The notes under the pieces are model-generated. The model made no database searches. It worked only from the letters and a program-made list of their open reading frames with translations, and was not told the DNA's origin. Positions 30,299-33,849 of a stretch of 40,933 nt of DNA are shown one piece after another. The position numbers were made by a program, and so were the translations under genes. Source of the stretch: a virus. The DNA lies in the UHGV virus genome UHGV-0179541. One strand, 5' to 3'. Within the stretch, counting starts at the first letter, position 1; each line of letters starts with the position of its first letter.

Positions 30299-30621
30299 AC
30301 TTTCATGCCCCTCTCATGTAACCAGTGGGTCGCACGCAGCCTGGCGTTTTCCTCACCGGCAAGCAGTGCGCGGATAATCCCGACCGCCTCGCTGTCGTCG
30401 TCCTTGACCGCGGTATGAAGCGTTATCCCCCGGGCCACGCCACGCTTTATCGTGATGACGCCTTTTTTCTCCAGTGCGCGAAGATGCTCTACCGCTGCAT
30501 TCACCGAACGATATCCCAGCATGGTTGCCACCTCCTGATTGGTTGGCGGGAAGCCCCGTTCTTTCTGGTAAGAAATCAGCATATCCAGCACCTGCTGCTG
30601 GCATTGAGTTAATGTCGTCAT
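30295..30621 (-). CDS. LexA-N-like winged-helix DNA-binding protein
   Basis: 108 aa; helix-turn-helix region resembling the LexA DNA-binding domain; no peptidase domain. Confidence 0.4.
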   Translation of the reverse strand: MTTLTQCQQQVLDMLISYQKERGFPPTNQEVATMLGYRSVNAAVEHLRALEKKGVITIKRGVARGITLHTAVKDDDSEAVGIIRALLAGEENARLRATHWLHERGMKV

Positions 30622-31271
30622 GCCGCCATCTCCATGACCAGTTTTTCCGCCTGCAGGCGAACCTGCGCCAGAAACGCCTCACCACATGCCTCAAGTTCAT
30701 CGCGCCCAATGTAGCTGATTGCCGCTCCCTTCCAGGTCTTGTCGAAAACAGCAATAGCACCAGCGAAGAAAGCGCCTGTCGGCACCTGCTTCTCATCCTT
30801 CGGGATAAACCAGGCAGGCAGTTCAAAACCAATACGCCCGCGAATAAAAGCAATATGGTCCGCATCTTCCGGCCACCACACTTCGCTGGTGGCAGCTTTG
30901 ATCAGGAAAACATAGCGCCCACCCTTATCACGCATGGCACTGGCATGTTTCATGATGTAACGCATGCCGGTGATGTATTGCCCCTCATGCTGACTGGCGC
31001 GGCTGTATGGGGGATTACCAAAGGCAGCACCTTTAAGCTCCGCAAGACGTTCTGACCAGTCATGCGCCAGCGCGTTGTCTTCCGCCGTGTAATACGCAGC
31101 GCATTTGGCGTTATCACCGTCAGTAAACAGATCCAGAACAAACGGGCCAAACAGGGTGTTAATTCCCCAGAAAATGTTGTCCGGTGTGCGCCACTGATCG
31201 CCCACTTCCTTCAGTTCATGGGCTGGTTTGTTCCGCAGTTCCACCAGCGCCTGGCAATATTTATTACTCAT
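30618..31271 (-). CDS. Phage N6-adenine DNA methyltransferase (Dam-like, orphan)
   Basis: NPPY catalytic motif (GNPPYS); start at ATG overlapping the upstream stop (TAATG); no adjacent restriction gene. Confidence 0.7.
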   Translation of the reverse strand: MSNKYCQALVELRNKPAHELKEVGDQWRTPDNIFWGINTLFGPFVLDLFTDGDNAKCAAYYTAEDNALAHDWSERLAELKGAAFGNPPYSRASQHEGQYITGMRYIMKHASAMRDKGGRYVFLIKAATSEVWWPEDADHIAFIRGRIGFELPAWFIPKDEKQVPTGAFFAGAIAVFDKTWKGAAISYIGRDELEACGEAFLAQVRLQAEKLVMEMAA

Positions 31272-31765
31272 TAAGCCCCCACGTAATTCCCTGACAGATA
31301 CCACTCTTCACCCGATGCAGCGCGCTTGCTGCTTTTCCGTAAGCACCGCTCACGACGCGCCAGAAAATTGTTTCGTTCTGGCTGGGAGTGGCTTTCACGG
31401 AATGCCGCCATCCACACCGTTGCAGCACGACGGTATAAGTCCCTGGACTCCAGTTCTTCAGCCTGGCGGATCAGGCACAAAATCACCCGCGGGTCGTTAG
31501 TGCCGACATAGAAATTGCGCACAGGTCTGGTTTCACGAACTGGTTGTGGTTCCGGCTCCTGCGCTCTCTCAGTCAGGCGCGGGAAATGTCTGCGTGTATC
31601 TCCTTCACAACGGTGAGCCACACGCCCACTCTGACGTAACTTGCTTGCTGACTGCAGAACGCGCTGCCGTGAGTAACCGGCAAAAGCATCCGCAATGTCT
31701 CCGGAAGTACAGCCCGGATGGGCTTCAATGAATTTCTGAACGTCATTTAACAGACTCATGATCAC
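31271..31765 (-). CDS. Hypothetical early protein downstream of the replication gene
   Basis: 164 aa, basic, translationally coupled to neighbours. Confidence 0.4.
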   Translation of the reverse strand: MIMSLLNDVQKFIEAHPGCTSGDIADAFAGYSRQRVLQSASKLRQSGRVAHRCEGDTRRHFPRLTERAQEPEPQPVRETRPVRNFYVGTNDPRVILCLIRQAEELESRDLYRRAATVWMAAFRESHSQPERNNFLARRERCLRKSSKRAASGEEWYLSGNYVGA

Positions 31766-32703
31766 CCCCTAAATCCTGCCGGGATCTGGCTGTAGTCCAC
31801 ATTGTCGTAACTGGCTTTGAAGTACGGGTCTTCACGTTTTTCTGTGTGCGTGCTGACGGACGGCGATAAGCGCAGGAAAAGCTCATCCCATTTTTCCCGC
31901 AACTTCGACGGGCTGAGCACGTTACGGCACCAGAACGGATCGCGGCTGACGCGGCTGTACATCTCGCAGATTTGTTTGTGAGTACGACCATCCTGCACAC
32001 ACATCAGGCGAATTTCGTTTGCCCAGGCTGTCCAGTTCGGTTCTTTGGGACGAATCACCTCGCCGTCACATTCGGCGGCCTGCTCGTACAGGGCGATGAT
32101 TTTTTTCCAGAGCCACTGTGCGCAGGTCAAATCATCCTGCGTTCCCCACTGACGCTTTTTAGGGCTGAATACAACCGCATCAGGATGGCGAGTTAAAAAA
32201 TCCTGTTCATCCGTCTGCGTGTCCGGTTGCGAAGCGTCCGGACGAGAAGTTTTTTTATCTGACGGATCATGTTTTGATTTTACTGACGGATCCCCGCCAG
32301 ATTCTGACGGGTGAAAACCCGCTTTTTTGCCAGATTTCGACGCATCAAATTTTGACGGGTCAGATTTTGATGCGTCAGATTTTGACGGGTCAGAATCTGA
32401 CAGTTGAGAAAATGCCGCTGCCTGAAGCTTCGCAACGTTAAGCTGATAAACATTCGACGCATTGCGGTTACCCTGGCGACGCGCCTTACGCGTTAACCAG
32501 CCTTCTGCTTCCAGCCGTGCGATAGCCGTTCTGACGGTACTCATCCCCGCGCCAATCTGGCGGGCAATGGTTTCAATTGATGGCCAGCACACACCTTCGT
32601 CATTACTGAAATCAGCCAGGCGGGCCATAATTGCCACGCTGGATAATTTCATGCCTGACGCAGCGCAACCATCCCATACATAGCCGGTTAATTTAGTGCT
32701 CAT
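31762..32703 (-). CDS. Replication initiation protein (O-like, N-terminal winged HTH, repetitive linker)
   Basis: 313 aa; HTH region; internal DPSKSDASKSDPSKFDASKSG repeats encoded by the iteron array. Confidence 0.6.
   Translation of the reverse strand: MSTKLTGYVWDGCAASGMKLSSVAIMARLADFSNDEGVCWPSIETIARQIGAGMSTVRTAIARLEAEGWLTRKARRQGNRNASNVYQLNVAKLQAAAFSQLSDSDPSKSDASKSDPSKFDASKSGKKAGFHPSESGGDPSVKSKHDPSDKKTSRPDASQPDTQTDEQDFLTRHPDAVVFSPKKRQWGTQDDLTCAQWLWKKIIALYEQAAECDGEVIRPKEPNWTAWANEIRLMCVQDGRTHKQICEMYSRVSRDPFWCRNVLSPSKLREKWDELFLRLSPSVSTHTEKREDPYFKASYDNVDYSQIPAGFRG
32255..32405. repeat. Iteron-like direct repeats (consensus near TCAGATTTTGACGGG) inside the replication gene, putative origin
   Basis: At least six related copies read directly. 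Confidence 0.6.
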
Positions 32704-32712
32704 GACCGACCT

Positions 32713-33051
32713 CTATTTCCCTGAATTTACGACGAAACTGTTCGAGCGGGCTGAAGCACTCATGCTCATAGCCTTCACGGAGGTAGATAACCCGTTGTGT
32801 TTCCGGCTCCCAACGAATGACTCTGACGGGCACTCCGTAGTGATCTTTGAACCAGCGGTTAACTTGTCGCAAAGGACTGTCTCCTTCTGCCGGTTGAAAT
32901 CACCCACAGCCCACTCTGCAAAGCTGTGGGTTACAATTTCCCTGTCACCTGGTACATTCACTGCATAGCAATATTCCACCTTCGCTTTTCCACCCGGTAC
33001 AGGAAGCGCAATCAGTTGCGAGCGACGGTAGTGTGTTGTTAAACTGTTCAT
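32713..33051 (-). CDS. Hypothetical ORF between cII-like and replication genes (may be non-coding)
   Basis: Track ORF only; contains a 9-bp inverted repeat ACCCACAGC-N12-GCTGTGGGT at about 32902..32931. Confidence 0.25.
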
Positions 33052-33617
33052 GCGTTAGTTTCTCCACAACCAGAAGCAATCGACGCCACGACGCCCGGAG
33101 CTGCACACTCGCGGGCGTCATTACTTTCTGAAATGCAAAAAATTTTGTAGACAAGTGCTGCATGCTCCTGCAGCTTCGAAATTGAGAGATACAGCTCGTC
33201 GTTAATTGCTGTCTTCTCATGCGGTTCCACTACACCATCTTCGATTGCTGAACGAATCTGTTTTGAATAACTGCCGATCTGTTCAATGACTTCCAGCAGA
33301 CGCTGGTTAATATCGGCGTTGTCCACATCCTCGACGTCAGGAAGAGACACAAAGACGCCATTTGCAGACTGCGCCACAGCATCAGCAATGAAGTGAGTGC
33401 CACCAGCACGCTGTAAAACCATTGCCCATCCCAGCGGGAAAATCTGATCGCCATCTGCACGAAGGCGGTTGAATAAAGCGTTTTCTGTTACATCGAGCCA
33501 GTCAGCCGCTTCAGCGTAACCACCCGGCAACGCCGCGATAGTTTTTCTGACAGCTTTCACGTACCACTCAGGCTGTTTTTCTATTTTCCAGTGATGCTTA
33601 CCCACGATTAGCCTCAT
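33048..33617 (-). CDS. CII-like regulatory protein (CP76-family-like)
   Basis: 189 aa immediately downstream of cro; recall-based family assignment. Confidence 0.4.
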
Positions 33618-33648
33618 CGTTCTGTGGTTAAAAATTGAAAGTGTTCTG

Positions 33649-33849
33649 CTAATCTTTCGGATAGATATCCGGTCTTAAGTCAGATTTCGTAATTGCACCT
33701 GACGTGCATTGCTCAAGTTTTTTAGCCAGCACAAAACTGGCTTTTTTATAGCCATTGAAAACCAGCCGTAAGTAGCCAGGTGTTGAGCCAACTTTTCCGG
33801 CCAACTCGCCCTGCTGTTCTTTGGTTAAAGAGTCCCAATACGCTTTCAT
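33649..33849 (-). CDS. cro: Cro-like HTH repressor
   Basis: 66-aa frame MKAYWDSLTKEQQGELAGKVGSTPGYLRLVFNGYKK..., divergent from cI; AGGT ribosome-binding site. Confidence 0.6.
   Translation of the reverse strand: MKAYWDSLTKEQQGELAGKVGSTPGYLRLVFNGYKKASFVLAKKLEQCTSGAITKSDLRPDIYPKD

What the first reader, a model, noticed from the sequence alone, without database searches (positions are those of the whole stretch)
32255..32405. Iteron array embedded in the replication initiator gene
At least six direct repeats related to TCAGATTTTGACGGG lie inside the O-like gene. They encode the repetitive DPSKSD linker and mirror lambda ori inside O. No separate helicase-loader gene (P or DnaC-like) is obvious downstream; the 164-aa gene that follows is too small to be one.
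Basis: partly seen in the sequence, partly recalled or inferred. Interest (0 to 1): 0.35.

Follow-up and report, generated by a model that had tools for sequence, protein, structure and literature searches.

The report
Phage origin repeats inside initiator gene
The 15-bp repeats inside this E. coli prophage's replication-initiator gene are conserved as DNA, not just as protein, so they are very probably the phage's replication origin; the phage has no helicase-loader gene, and its initiator ends in the same short tail as the host protein DnaT, which suggests a testable way it borrows the host loader.

Summary
Six strong and two weaker copies of a 15-bp unit lie at 32258-32409, inside a 313-aa gene for a lambda-O-like initiator (31762-32703, minus strand). 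The prophage is e14/SfII/SfIV-like. Each unit holds a 14-bp dyad, TCTGAC-NN-GTCA(A/G)A.

Three results show selection on the DNA itself:
- Across 67 distinct homologues, pairwise codon identity at conserved residues is 0.42 in the N-terminal winged-helix domain but 0.84 in the repeat-coding linker (p = 1e-14).
- Homologues with Ile instead of Arg58 in the predicted recognition helix have both half-sites changed symmetrically, to TCTGAA-CG-TTCAGA.
- The N-domain and repeats are inherited together, while the C-domain is swapped.

The layout parallels ori-lambda and the phi80 gene 15 origin, and the C-domain is homologous to that of lambda O. I therefore read the array as the origin. This is an inference; replication was not tested.

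No P, DnaC or DnaB homologue exists in the window or in phage SfII. This "O-only" module type is described in the literature as not understood. The initiator's last residues (SQIPAGFRG) match the conserved tail of host DnaT and of Rac YdaU. This suggests that it recruits the host DnaB-DnaC complex. That hypothesis is untested, and earlier agents of this scan reached it too.

The parts
31762..32703 (-). Replication initiator gene, 313 aa, lambda-O-like (phrog_391 'replication initiation O-like'). It comprises an N-terminal winged helix, a disordered linker, a lambda-O-type C-domain and a C-terminal tail.
   Evidence: ORF list. Pfam HTH_36, E = 4e-11. phrog_391, E = 8e-135. BLASTP to lambda O, E = 7e-26. 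AlphaFold2 model.
32410..32703 (-). N-terminal winged-helix DNA-binding domain (aa 1-98). The predicted recognition helix is aa 54-66 and contains Arg58. The wing is aa 70-88.
   Evidence: AF2 secondary structure, with block pLDDT of 82-89. Foldseek hits are all MarR/ArsR-type wHTH proteins. Residue 58 co-varies with the half-site base.
32336..32409 (.). Five abutting 15-bp iterons, R0-R4. Each holds a 14-bp dyad TCTGAC-NN-RTCARA: R0 32396-32409, R1 32381-32394, R2 32366-32379, R3 32351-32364, R4 32336-32349.
   Evidence: Codons here are almost invariant across 67 homologues.
32303..32316 (.). Sixth full iteron, R5 (TTTCACCCGTCAGA on the coding strand). An 18-bp spacer with A6 and T4 runs (32317-32335) separates it from the tandem block.
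   Evidence: It scores 20.6 bits with a matrix that was not trained on it, and has 1-2 mismatches to the dyad pattern.
32258..32295 (.). Two degenerate iteron-like copies, R6 (32282-32295) and R7 (32258-32271), of the form GATCCGTCAG. Each carries a GATC site, at 32289 and 32265. This is the most conserved part of the element.
   Evidence: In the codon alignment GAT is 67/67, CCG 65/67, TCA 57/57 and GTA 65/65. GATCCRTYA is present once to three times in all 67 homologues and twice in 50.
32248..32286 (.). Moderately A/T-rich, strand-asymmetric stretch overlapping R6-R7 and ending in an A7 run. It is about 72% A+T by my own count of the printed bases. It is the candidate unwinding region.
   Evidence: Sequence. 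G+C dips to 0.42-0.45 here, against about 0.55 in the rest of the gene. Its role is inferred by analogy with the A/T-rich region beside the lambda iterons (own knowledge).
31864..32187 (-). C-terminal domain (aa 173-280), homologous to the C-domains of lambda O and phi80 gp15. In lambda this is the P-interacting half (own knowledge).
   Evidence: BLASTP 31-37% identity, E = 7e-26 and 8e-25. pLDDT is mostly above 90.
31765..31821 (-). C-terminal tail (aa 295-313, ...FKASYDNVDYSQIPAGFRG). The last 9 residues match the last 9 of E. coli DnaT at 8 of 9 positions.
   Evidence: BLASTP. hhalign profile-profile comparison aligns only these 18 columns, P = 2.9e-5. The tail is conserved in DnaT orthologues and in Rac YdaU.
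31271..31765 (-). 164-aa downstream gene, YfdN-like: an N-terminal wHTH plus a PerC/ANR-like C-terminal half. It is a regulator, not a helicase loader.
   Evidence: Pfam PerC, E = 2.7e-7. NCBIfam ANR_neg_reg. phrog_1324 'transcriptional activator'. It is absent after the initiator in L003 and L004.
30618..31304 (-). Phage Dam-family DNA adenine methyltransferase gene. A methyltransferase gene follows the initiator in most related modules.
   Evidence: Pfam Dam, E = 6e-45. Among 75 ORFs downstream of 48 tail-bearing initiators there are 44 methyltransferase-family matches.

Best explanation
The array is the replication origin of an 'O-only' lambdoid prophage, and it lies inside the gene for its own initiator.

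Shown here:
- The DNA of the linker region, not just its peptide, is under strong purifying selection.
- It consists of abutting 15-bp units, each with a 14-bp dyad. These are followed by a highly conserved, A/T-richer core with two GATC-bearing degenerate copies.
- It is inherited as one block with the N-terminal winged-helix domain.
- Its half-site sequence changes together with a residue in that domain's predicted recognition helix.

Inferred:
- Dimers of the N-domain bind the dyads and build an O-some-like nucleoprotein complex.
- The adjacent A/T-rich core is destabilised.
- The helicase is loaded there.

Because the phage has no P, DnaC or DnaB gene, the helicase must be the host's. The initiator's lambda-O-type C-domain is followed by a flexible tail ending IPAGFRG. 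The same motif ends host DnaT and Rac YdaU, and both of those genes sit next to a DnaC-type loader gene. I propose that the tail brings in the host DnaB-DnaC complex, or another primosome component. This last step is hypothesis only.
For: 1. Repeats are real and unique to this spot.

2. Synonymous-site test on 67 distinct homologues from many enterobacterial genera. At columns with a conserved residue, mean pairwise codon identity is 0.42 in the N-domain (71 columns), 0.84 in the linker (38 columns) and 0.54 after it (21 columns). Mann-Whitney p = 1e-14 for linker against N-domain. With 4- and 6-fold degenerate residues only, the values are 0.36 against 0.80, p = 2e-10.

3. The variable position of the pentapeptide (P/A/T/G/R/H...) is the codon spanning the dyad's central spacer. 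In one subgroup this codon is CGT/CAT/TAT/TGT, so the amino acid changes while the third base T stays fixed.

4. Co-variation. The 62 sequences with Arg58 have C..G or C..A at dyad positions 6 and 9 in 146 of 236 units, and A..T in 1 of 236. The four sequences with Ile58 have A..T in 10 of 10 units, giving the perfect palindrome TCTGAACGTTCAGA. Residue 58 lies in the predicted recognition helix.

5. Modularity. Many of the 80 related loci match only residues 1 to about 137-185. Examples such as phiNP and YeP3 continue with a different C-domain.

6. The position and the C-domain parallel lambda O/ori-lambda and phi80 gp15 with its four annotated gp15 sites.

7. SfII and SfIV are viable phages carrying this module at 97-98% identity, and SfII has no loader gene. 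PMC12315714 reports that 34 of 314 lambdoid phages have only an O homologue and that their replication is 'not yet understood'.

8. Tail. It is identical at 8 of 9 residues to the DnaT C-terminus. (I/V)PxGFRG is kept in DnaT orthologues down to 40-50% identity, while the roughly 25 preceding residues vary. It is also present in YdaU, which is followed by the DnaC homologue YdaV, and in a DUF1376-DnaT-CTD protein followed by a DnaC homologue. Among the 80 loci, 0 of 48 tail-bearing initiators have a P-type loader, against 6 of 32 without the tail (Fisher p = 0.003).
Against: - No experiment or read-depth profile shows that replication starts here.
- The A/T-rich stretch is modest (about 72% over 39 bp) compared with classical unwinding elements.
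- The Arg/Ile co-variation probably reflects a single evolutionary event in one clade.
- Units abut at 15 bp (about 1.4 helical turns), so not all may be occupied at once.
- For the tail: 24 of 32 initiators without the tail also lack any loader in the 3 kb fetched, and two intact tail-less initiators are followed by DnaC-type genes. The tail is therefore neither necessary for loaderless replication nor universal with DnaC.
- The loci are phylogenetically related, so the Fisher test overstates independence.
- The 2026 preprimosome paper favours the DnaT N-terminal domain as the DnaB/DnaC recruiter and assigns no role to the tail.
- No binding partner was tested.
Confidence: 0.78

Rival explanations
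1. The repeats are only a repetitive, flexible Ser/Asp/Lys/Pro peptide linker generated by in-frame duplication. The DNA has no cis-acting role.
For: The region is predicted to be disordered (pLDDT below 50 for aa 103-160). All copies are in one reading frame. Copy number varies among near-identical alleles of 303, 313, 318 and 323 aa, as in simple tandem repeats.
Against: Synonymous sites are almost frozen here (0.84 against 0.42 in the flanking domain) across 67 homologues whose N-domains are saturated at silent sites. Amino acids change while specific bases stay fixed. The units are dyad-symmetric and co-vary with the DNA-binding domain.
Confidence: 0.03
2. The DNA element is functional and bound by the initiator, but it is not the origin. 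It could be an autoregulatory operator or roadblock inside the gene. Alternatively the constraint could come from an overlapping small ORF or RNA: 55-aa and 60-aa ORFs run through the repeats in other frames.
For: Alternative-frame ORFs exist at 32274-32441 (+) and 32280-32462 (-). Iteron-binding initiators commonly autoregulate (own knowledge of iteron plasmids). No direct evidence of initiation at this site was obtained.
Against: The same-strand alternative ORF (32280-32462, minus strand) ends at the conserved GTAAAA, before the most conserved core (my reading of the bases). The variable positions fall on the dyad centre, which fits a protein-binding site and not a second reading frame. The position is homologous to the proven origins of lambda and phi80. 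No other iteron-like cluster exists in the window to serve as an origin.
Confidence: 0.12
3. The origin reading is right, but helicase loading does not go through a tail-DnaC contact. The tail may engage PriA or PriB, so that a restart-type primosome assembles on an opened origin or R-loop. The lambda-O-type C-domain may contact DnaB or DnaA directly. Or growth may rely mainly on recombination-dependent replication.
For: DnaT acts within the PriA-PriB-DnaT preprimosome, and its CTD docks on PriA. Many loaderless initiators lack the tail (24 of 32). Zheng et al. link one O-only phage (LLS) to RecBCD/Chi-dependent growth.
Against: Tail-bearing proteins sit immediately upstream of DnaC-type genes in three independent contexts: dnaT-dnaC, ydaU-ydaV, and loci L108 and L069. 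The tail is never seen with a P-type loader in this sample.
Confidence: 0.25

Closest known systems
Bacteriophage lambda ori-lambda with O and P
   Same: The origin consists of dyad-symmetric iterons inside the initiator gene, in the DNA that encodes the interdomain linker (lambda codons 117-145; here 100-150). A/T-richer DNA follows in the direction of transcription. The C-domain is homologous (31% identity, E = 7e-26). The gene lies in the pR operon after cro and cII.
   Different: The N-terminal domain is HTH_36-type, not Phage_rep_O. The units are 15 bp and abut, with 6 full and 2 degenerate copies, whereas lambda has four annotated 18-bp sites 20-24 bp apart. There is no P gene. The C-terminus ends IPAGFRG instead of lambda's ...NTDWIYGVDL.
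Phage phi80 gene 15 / gene 14 replication module
   Same: Four annotated gp15 binding sites lie inside gene 15 at a comparable position. The C-domain is 37% identical to this protein. One homologue of this family is even named 'Replication protein 15' by a source.
   Different: phi80 has a different N-domain and different iterons (a TTCCCGAAAACGGGAA type, about 21-bp spacing). It also has a P-like partner, gp14.
O-only replication modules of lambdoid phages (phage LLS; 34 of 314 phages; Zheng, Casjens, Davidson, Amundsen and Smith 2025, PMC12315714)
   Same: The replication module consists of one O homologue and no helicase or loader. SfII and SfIV-type phages fit this description.
   Different: That paper gives no origin anatomy and no mechanism. 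It states that none of these phages has been studied experimentally. Whether this phage is in its list of 34 was not checked.
E. coli DnaT (primosomal protein i) and the dnaT-dnaC operon
   Same: The extreme C-terminal motif (I/V)PxGFRG follows a variable spacer. The tail-bearing protein acts upstream of a DnaC-type loader.
   Different: There is no DnaT N-terminal domain and no DnaT ssDNA-binding CTD; hhalign aligns only the 18 tail columns. This protein binds a specific duplex origin through a winged helix. The public annotation 'primosomal protein' overstates the relationship.
Rac prophage YdaU-YdaV and related DUF1376 initiators
   Same: The phage replication protein ends ...PDSAIPPGFRG. 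The L108 relative has a DnaT-like CTD as well as the tail.
   Different: The N-terminal domain is different (DUF1376). These modules carry their own DnaC homologue, whereas the module studied here has none.
Iteron origins of plasmids and of phage-plasmid P1 (oriR)
   Same: There are tandem initiator-binding repeats next to an A/T-rich region that contains GATC sites (own knowledge for P1 and oriC). Array copy number is variable.
   Different: Those iterons lie outside the rep gene, and helicase recruitment uses DnaA or direct Rep-DnaB contacts. No DnaA box was recognised here by eye, and none was searched for systematically.

Membership tests
Lambda-type origin embedded in the initiator gene (ori-lambda / phi80 ori class) | Multiple initiator-binding repeats located inside the initiator's own coding sequence, between the N- and C-domains | tested here: met
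   Six full and two degenerate copies lie at 32258-32409, which is codons 99-149 of 313. Lambda sites lie at codons 117-145, and phi80 sites lie inside gene 15.
Lambda-type origin embedded in the initiator gene (ori-lambda / phi80 ori class) | Repeats have internal dyad symmetry and are specific to the cognate N-terminal domain | tested here: met
   The dyad is TCTGAC-NN-GTCARA. The N-domain and repeats are inherited as a block. There is a symmetric half-site change with Arg58 to Ile. Physical binding was not tested.
Lambda-type origin embedded in the initiator gene (ori-lambda / phi80 ori class) | The DNA sequence is selected independently of the encoded peptide | tested here: met
   Codon identity is 0.84 in the linker against 0.42 in the N-domain, p = 1e-14.
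Lambda-type origin embedded in the initiator gene (ori-lambda / phi80 ori class) | An A/T-rich unwinding region adjoins the repeats | tested here: inconclusive
   Positions 32248-32286 are about 72% A+T with A-runs (my count), and G+C falls to 0.42-0.45 against about 0.55. This is weaker than classical unwinding elements.
Lambda-type origin embedded in the initiator gene (ori-lambda / phi80 ori class) | Supports initiation of replication in cis | not testable with these tools
Lambda O protein family in the strict sense (Pfam Phage_rep_O N-domain plus a P partner) | N-terminal Phage_rep_O (PF04492) domain | tested here: not met
   Pfam finds HTH_36, GntR-like and MarR-like winged helices only. 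BLASTP to lambda O and phi80 gp15 aligns only the linker and C-domain.
Lambda O protein family in the strict sense (Pfam Phage_rep_O N-domain plus a P partner) | C-terminal domain homologous to lambda O | tested here: met
   E = 7e-26 to lambda O residues 180-268. tblastn shows 36% identity over aa 131-275.
Lambda O protein family in the strict sense (Pfam Phage_rep_O N-domain plus a P partner) | Adjacent P-type helicase-loader gene | tested here: not met
   There is no P or gp14 hit in the window and none annotated in SfII.
O-only lambdoid replication modules (PMC12315714) | Module encodes an O homologue and no helicase or helicase loader | tested here: met
   Pfam scans of 75 ORFs downstream of 48 tail-bearing homologues gave no loader or helicase family; tblastn found one DnaC-type gene, at L069, that the ORF list had missed.
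DnaT (PF17948, primosomal protein i) | DnaT ssDNA-binding C-terminal domain (residues about 84-153) and the N-terminal oligomerisation domain | tested here: not met
   No Pfam or NCBIfam DnaT hit. hhalign of the C-half profile against a DnaT profile aligns only the last 18 columns; the global alignment has probability 1.5%.
DnaT (PF17948, primosomal protein i) | Extreme C-terminal (I/V)PxGFRG tail | tested here: met
   SQIPAGFRG against SQIPPGFRG. The motif is invariant in DnaT orthologues.

The most novel reading that the evidence does not exclude
The C-terminal peptide (I/V)PxGFRG is a portable docking motif for the DnaC-type loader (DnaB6-DnaC6). In DnaT it would be the still-unidentified contact through which the PriA-PriB-DnaT preprimosome hands over the helicase. 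O-only temperate phages of Enterobacterales would have attached the same peptide to unrelated initiator C-domains, so that they can load the host helicase at their own in-gene origins without encoding a loader.
Probability: 0.35. Interest if true: 0.8.

Novelty: new variant of a known kind. Interest (0 to 1): 0.5.

Why it matters
Placing an origin inside the initiator gene is the classical lambda arrangement, so the array itself is an expected kind of element. Here it comes with an unusually clean computational signature: frozen silent sites, and half-sites that co-vary with the predicted recognition helix.

The interest lies in the context. This is one of the 'O-only' lambdoid modules. Specialists have recently flagged these as common (about 11% of lambdoid phages), unstudied and not understood (PMC12315714). 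Knowing the origin and the DNA-binding specificity gives a minimal replicon to clone.

The DnaT-like tail turns two open questions into simple peptide-deletion and binding experiments in E. coli K-12:
- How do loaderless phages load DnaB?
- How does the DnaT preprimosome recruit DnaB-DnaC? The 2024-2026 papers read here state that this is unknown.

The point is not new within this scan, because earlier agents reached the same reading on sister prophages.

Tried and rejected
- DnaT homology of the whole C-half. Public records call the protein 'primosomal protein (I)'. Pfam, NCBIfam and hhalign show that only the last ~18 residues resemble DnaT, so this is rejected.
- PDB sequence search and Foldseek against PDB. 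These gave only generic winged-helix hits for the N-domain and nothing informative for the C-domain.
- The 164-aa gene as a cryptic loader. It is PerC/ANR-like with a wHTH and is absent from related modules, so this is rejected.
- A loader elsewhere in the prophage. tblastn with five queries found nothing.
- A degenerate DNA pattern search for the tail in viral contigs.
- The genome search at class and order level for DnaT. The sampling was too sparse; family level worked. For loci whose match lay on the minus strand, my script read the wrong strand, so only the plus-strand DnaT loci were used.
- The methyltransferase link. A methyltransferase gene follows the initiator in most loci, but of four different families. 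I do not infer a dedicated Dam-origin circuit from it.
- The SfIV and SfI genome papers say nothing about the origin or the loader.
- Structure prediction of a tail-DnaC complex was not possible with the single-chain tool.
Full report
**Context.** The window is an e14/SfV-like prophage of E. coli. Earlier notes on this genome place it in icd. Region 31200-33700 is 97-98% identical to the isolated phages SfII and SfIV and to several Escherichia phages. On the minus strand the gene order is cro-like, cII/YmfL-like, a 112-aa ORF, a DUF4222 ORF, the 313-aa initiator (31762-32703), a 164-aa PerC-like gene, Dam, a LexA-like gene, RusA, an antirepressor and DUF968.

- Tandem Repeats Finder gives a 15-bp period with 4.3 copies and a 30-bp super-period. 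The repeat finder shows the same families and internal inverted repeats.
- A weight matrix from five tandem copies finds every hit of 16 bits or more in the 40.9-kb window inside 32294-32403. This includes an untrained sixth copy at 20.6 bits. The best score elsewhere is 14.5.
- The dyad pattern TCTGACNNRTCARA with up to 2 mismatches occurs 23 times, against 9.5 +/- 3.9 in shuffles. Twelve hits, and all those with 0-1 mismatch, fall in 32258-32409.
- On the coding strand the units are in frame and encode SD-PSKSD-ASKSD-PSKFD-ASKSG ... HPSESGGDPSVKSKHDPSD.

**The protein.**
- Pfam finds an HTH_36 winged helix at aa 23-70.
- PHROGs places the whole protein in phrog_391, 'replication initiation O-like'.
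- Residues 175-275 are homologous to the C-domains of lambda O (E = 7e-26) and phi80 gp15 (E = 8e-25).
- An AlphaFold2 model built on 54 homologues gives four regions:
  - a winged helix at aa 1-98, with the recognition helix at 54-66;
  - a disordered linker at aa 103-160;
  - a confident helical C-domain at aa 162-279;
  - a low-confidence tail.
- Foldseek matches only MarR/ArsR-type winged helices.

**Is the DNA itself selected?** I fetched 80 related loci from species-representative genomes and codon-aligned 67 distinct homologues.
- At columns with a conserved amino acid, silent sites in the N-domain are essentially randomised. Mean pairwise codon identity is 0.42 there.
- In the linker it is 0.84. 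Many codons are invariant: TCA 65/67, AAA 53/53, TCT 54/54, TTT 62/62, GAA 60/60, GAT 67/67, GTA 65/65 and TGT 52/52.
- It falls back to 0.54 after residue 162. Mann-Whitney p = 1e-14.
- The same sequences serve as their own control, so shared ancestry does not explain the contrast.
- The variable residue of the pentapeptide lies on the dyad's central spacer. In one subgroup that codon reads CGT, CAT, TAT or TGT, so the amino acid differs while the third base stays fixed.

This excludes the 'mere peptide linker' reading.

**What binds it?** Each 15-bp unit contains a 14-bp dyad.
- In 62 homologues with Arg at position 58, dyad positions 6 and 9 are C..G or C..A, and A..T occurs in 1 of 236 units.
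- In four homologues with Ile58 (Entomohabitans, two Rahnella, Tatumella) all ten units read TCTGAA-CG-TTCAGA.
- A symmetric change in every unit, together with a change in the predicted recognition helix, is what a dimeric winged helix reading its own iterons would produce.
- It is probably a single evolutionary event, so I treat it as supportive, not as proof.
- Independently, the N-domain and the repeat block travel together. Many of the 80 loci match only residues 1 to about 137-185. Examples such as phiNP and YeP3 continue with a different C-domain.

This mirrors the lambdoid rule that origin specificity resides in the N-terminal half of O (own knowledge).

**Anatomy.**
- Five abutting units, R0-R4, lie at 32336-32409.
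- An 18-bp spacer with A6 and T4 runs follows, then R5 at 32303-32316.
- Next comes the most conserved part, GGGGATCCGTCAGTAAAATCAAAACATGATCCGTCAGATAAAAAAA. It contains two degenerate copies with invariant GATC sites and is about 72% A+T.
- GATCCRTYA occurs in all 67 homologues and twice in 50. It persists even where the tandem units are of another type.
- Near-identical alleles of 303, 313, 318 and 323 aa differ by whole 15-bp units.

**Comparison with known origins.** The lambda iterons are annotated at O codons 117-145. The four phi80 gp15 sites lie inside gene 15. The position, the dyad symmetry, the following A/T-richer DNA and the homologous C-domain make this a lambda-class origin. It differs in having another N-domain family and a tighter repeat geometry. 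I found no paper that describes this origin; the SfIV and SfI genome papers do not mention it.

**The missing loader.**
- No homologue of lambda P, phi80 gp14, DnaC, YdaV or DnaB exists in the window, and none is annotated in the SfII genome.
- The 164-aa gene is a wHTH-PerC-like regulator and is absent from related modules.
- Zheng et al. [quoted passage not shown]

**A lead on the loader problem.**
- The last nine residues, SQIPAGFRG, match the last nine of E. coli DnaT, SQIPPGFRG.
- Profile-profile alignment confirms that only this tail is shared, not the DnaT CTD.
- The motif (I/V)PxGFRG is invariant at the C-terminus of DnaT orthologues, even in copies 40-50% identical from small (about 1 Mb) genomes, while the preceding ~25 residues drift.
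- It also ends Rac YdaU, whose neighbour YdaV is a DnaC homologue.
- It ends a DUF1376-DnaT-CTD protein that is followed by a DnaC homologue.
- It ends initiators with at least three different C-domains.
- Among the 80 loci, none of the 48 tail-bearing initiators has a P-type loader, one has a DnaC-type gene, and 47 have none. Six of the 32 without the tail have P (Fisher p = 0.003, not corrected for phylogeny).
- The restart literature read here says that how DnaT recruits DnaB-DnaC is unknown, and it assigns no role to residues 154-179.

I therefore propose that the tail recruits the host DnaB-DnaC complex. The caveats are:
- 24 tail-less initiators are also loaderless within the DNA fetched.
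- Two tail-less initiators have DnaC-type neighbours.
- PriA or PriB remain possible partners.
- Nothing was tested physically.

**Earlier agents.** Earlier agents of this scan reached the same two conclusions on sister prophages. I found the tail match, before reading those notes, and I do not count them as evidence.

**Verdict.**
- The element is a new variant of a known kind: a lambda-class in-gene origin belonging to a loaderless module.
- Confidence that the DNA is a selected cis element is about 0.95.
- Confidence that it is the initiator-bound origin is about 0.8.
- Confidence that the tail recruits the DnaC-type loader is about 0.35-0.5.

Noticed in passing
window 32258-32295 (GATC at 32265 and 32289); Dam gene 30618-31304: Two GATCCGTCA motifs in the origin core are the most conserved bases of the whole element. 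They persist even in homologues whose tandem iterons are of another type. A DNA methyltransferase gene of one of four different families follows the initiator in most related modules. A role for Dam/SeqA-type control of the origin is possible but unsupported.
   Followed up: partly
L138:2620-3477 (E. coli K-12 Rac prophage ydaU) and L138:3484-4230 (ydaV): YdaU ends ...RQVNTVSLPDSAIPPGFRG, almost the same as DnaT's ...RDVNTVSEPDSQIPPGFRG. It is followed by the DnaC homologue YdaV, which mirrors the host dnaT-dnaC operon.
   Followed up: partly
L108:1498-2331 (-) and L108:755-1495 (-): In an enterobacterial prophage, a 277-aa protein has a DUF1376-like N-terminus, a DnaT-CTD-like domain (46% identity to DnaT 76-179) and the IPPGFRG tail. 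It sits directly upstream of a DnaC homologue. This looks like a phage counterpart of dnaT-dnaC.
   Followed up: no
L005, L015-L021, L034, L044, L052, L059, L063, L065-L068, L071, L080-L082 (initiators of 335-374 aa): A second group shares the N-domain and iterons but has a longer C-terminus ending in Gln/Ala/Glu-rich sequences (for example ...QRGNQGEAA), without the GFRG tail. No loader was found in the 3 kb fetched downstream. These may use another solution to the loader problem.
   Followed up: no
L064:3001-3903 and the DnaC-like gene at L064:3908-4630: One tail-less homologue ends ...GGTDDDFI, which is reminiscent of the acidic SSB C-terminal tip (own knowledge). It is followed by a DnaC homologue.
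   Followed up: no
window 32693-32872 (-) and 32713-33051 (-): Just upstream of the initiator, a 59-aa DUF4222 ORF (Pfam E = 9e-19) overlaps the last ~53 codons of the 112-aa YmfM-like ORF (phrog_1170) in another frame of the same strand. A 63-aa PHROG family matches only the first 63 residues of the longer ORF. Which reading is expressed is unclear.
   Followed up: no
proteins P0126, P0129, P0130, P0136, P0139 (alleles of the window gene): Near-identical alleles differ by whole 15-bp units (303, 313, 318 and 323 aa). Some have lost most of the array by repeat-to-repeat deletion (287 and 274 aa) and may be origin-defective cryptic copies.
   Followed up: partly
protein P0158 (329 aa): An E. 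coli allele has the same C-domain and tail but a different end to the N-domain and a different repeat peptide (VDPSNI/DPSTVDPSNF). It is probably another origin-specificity type on the same C-terminal half.
   Followed up: no
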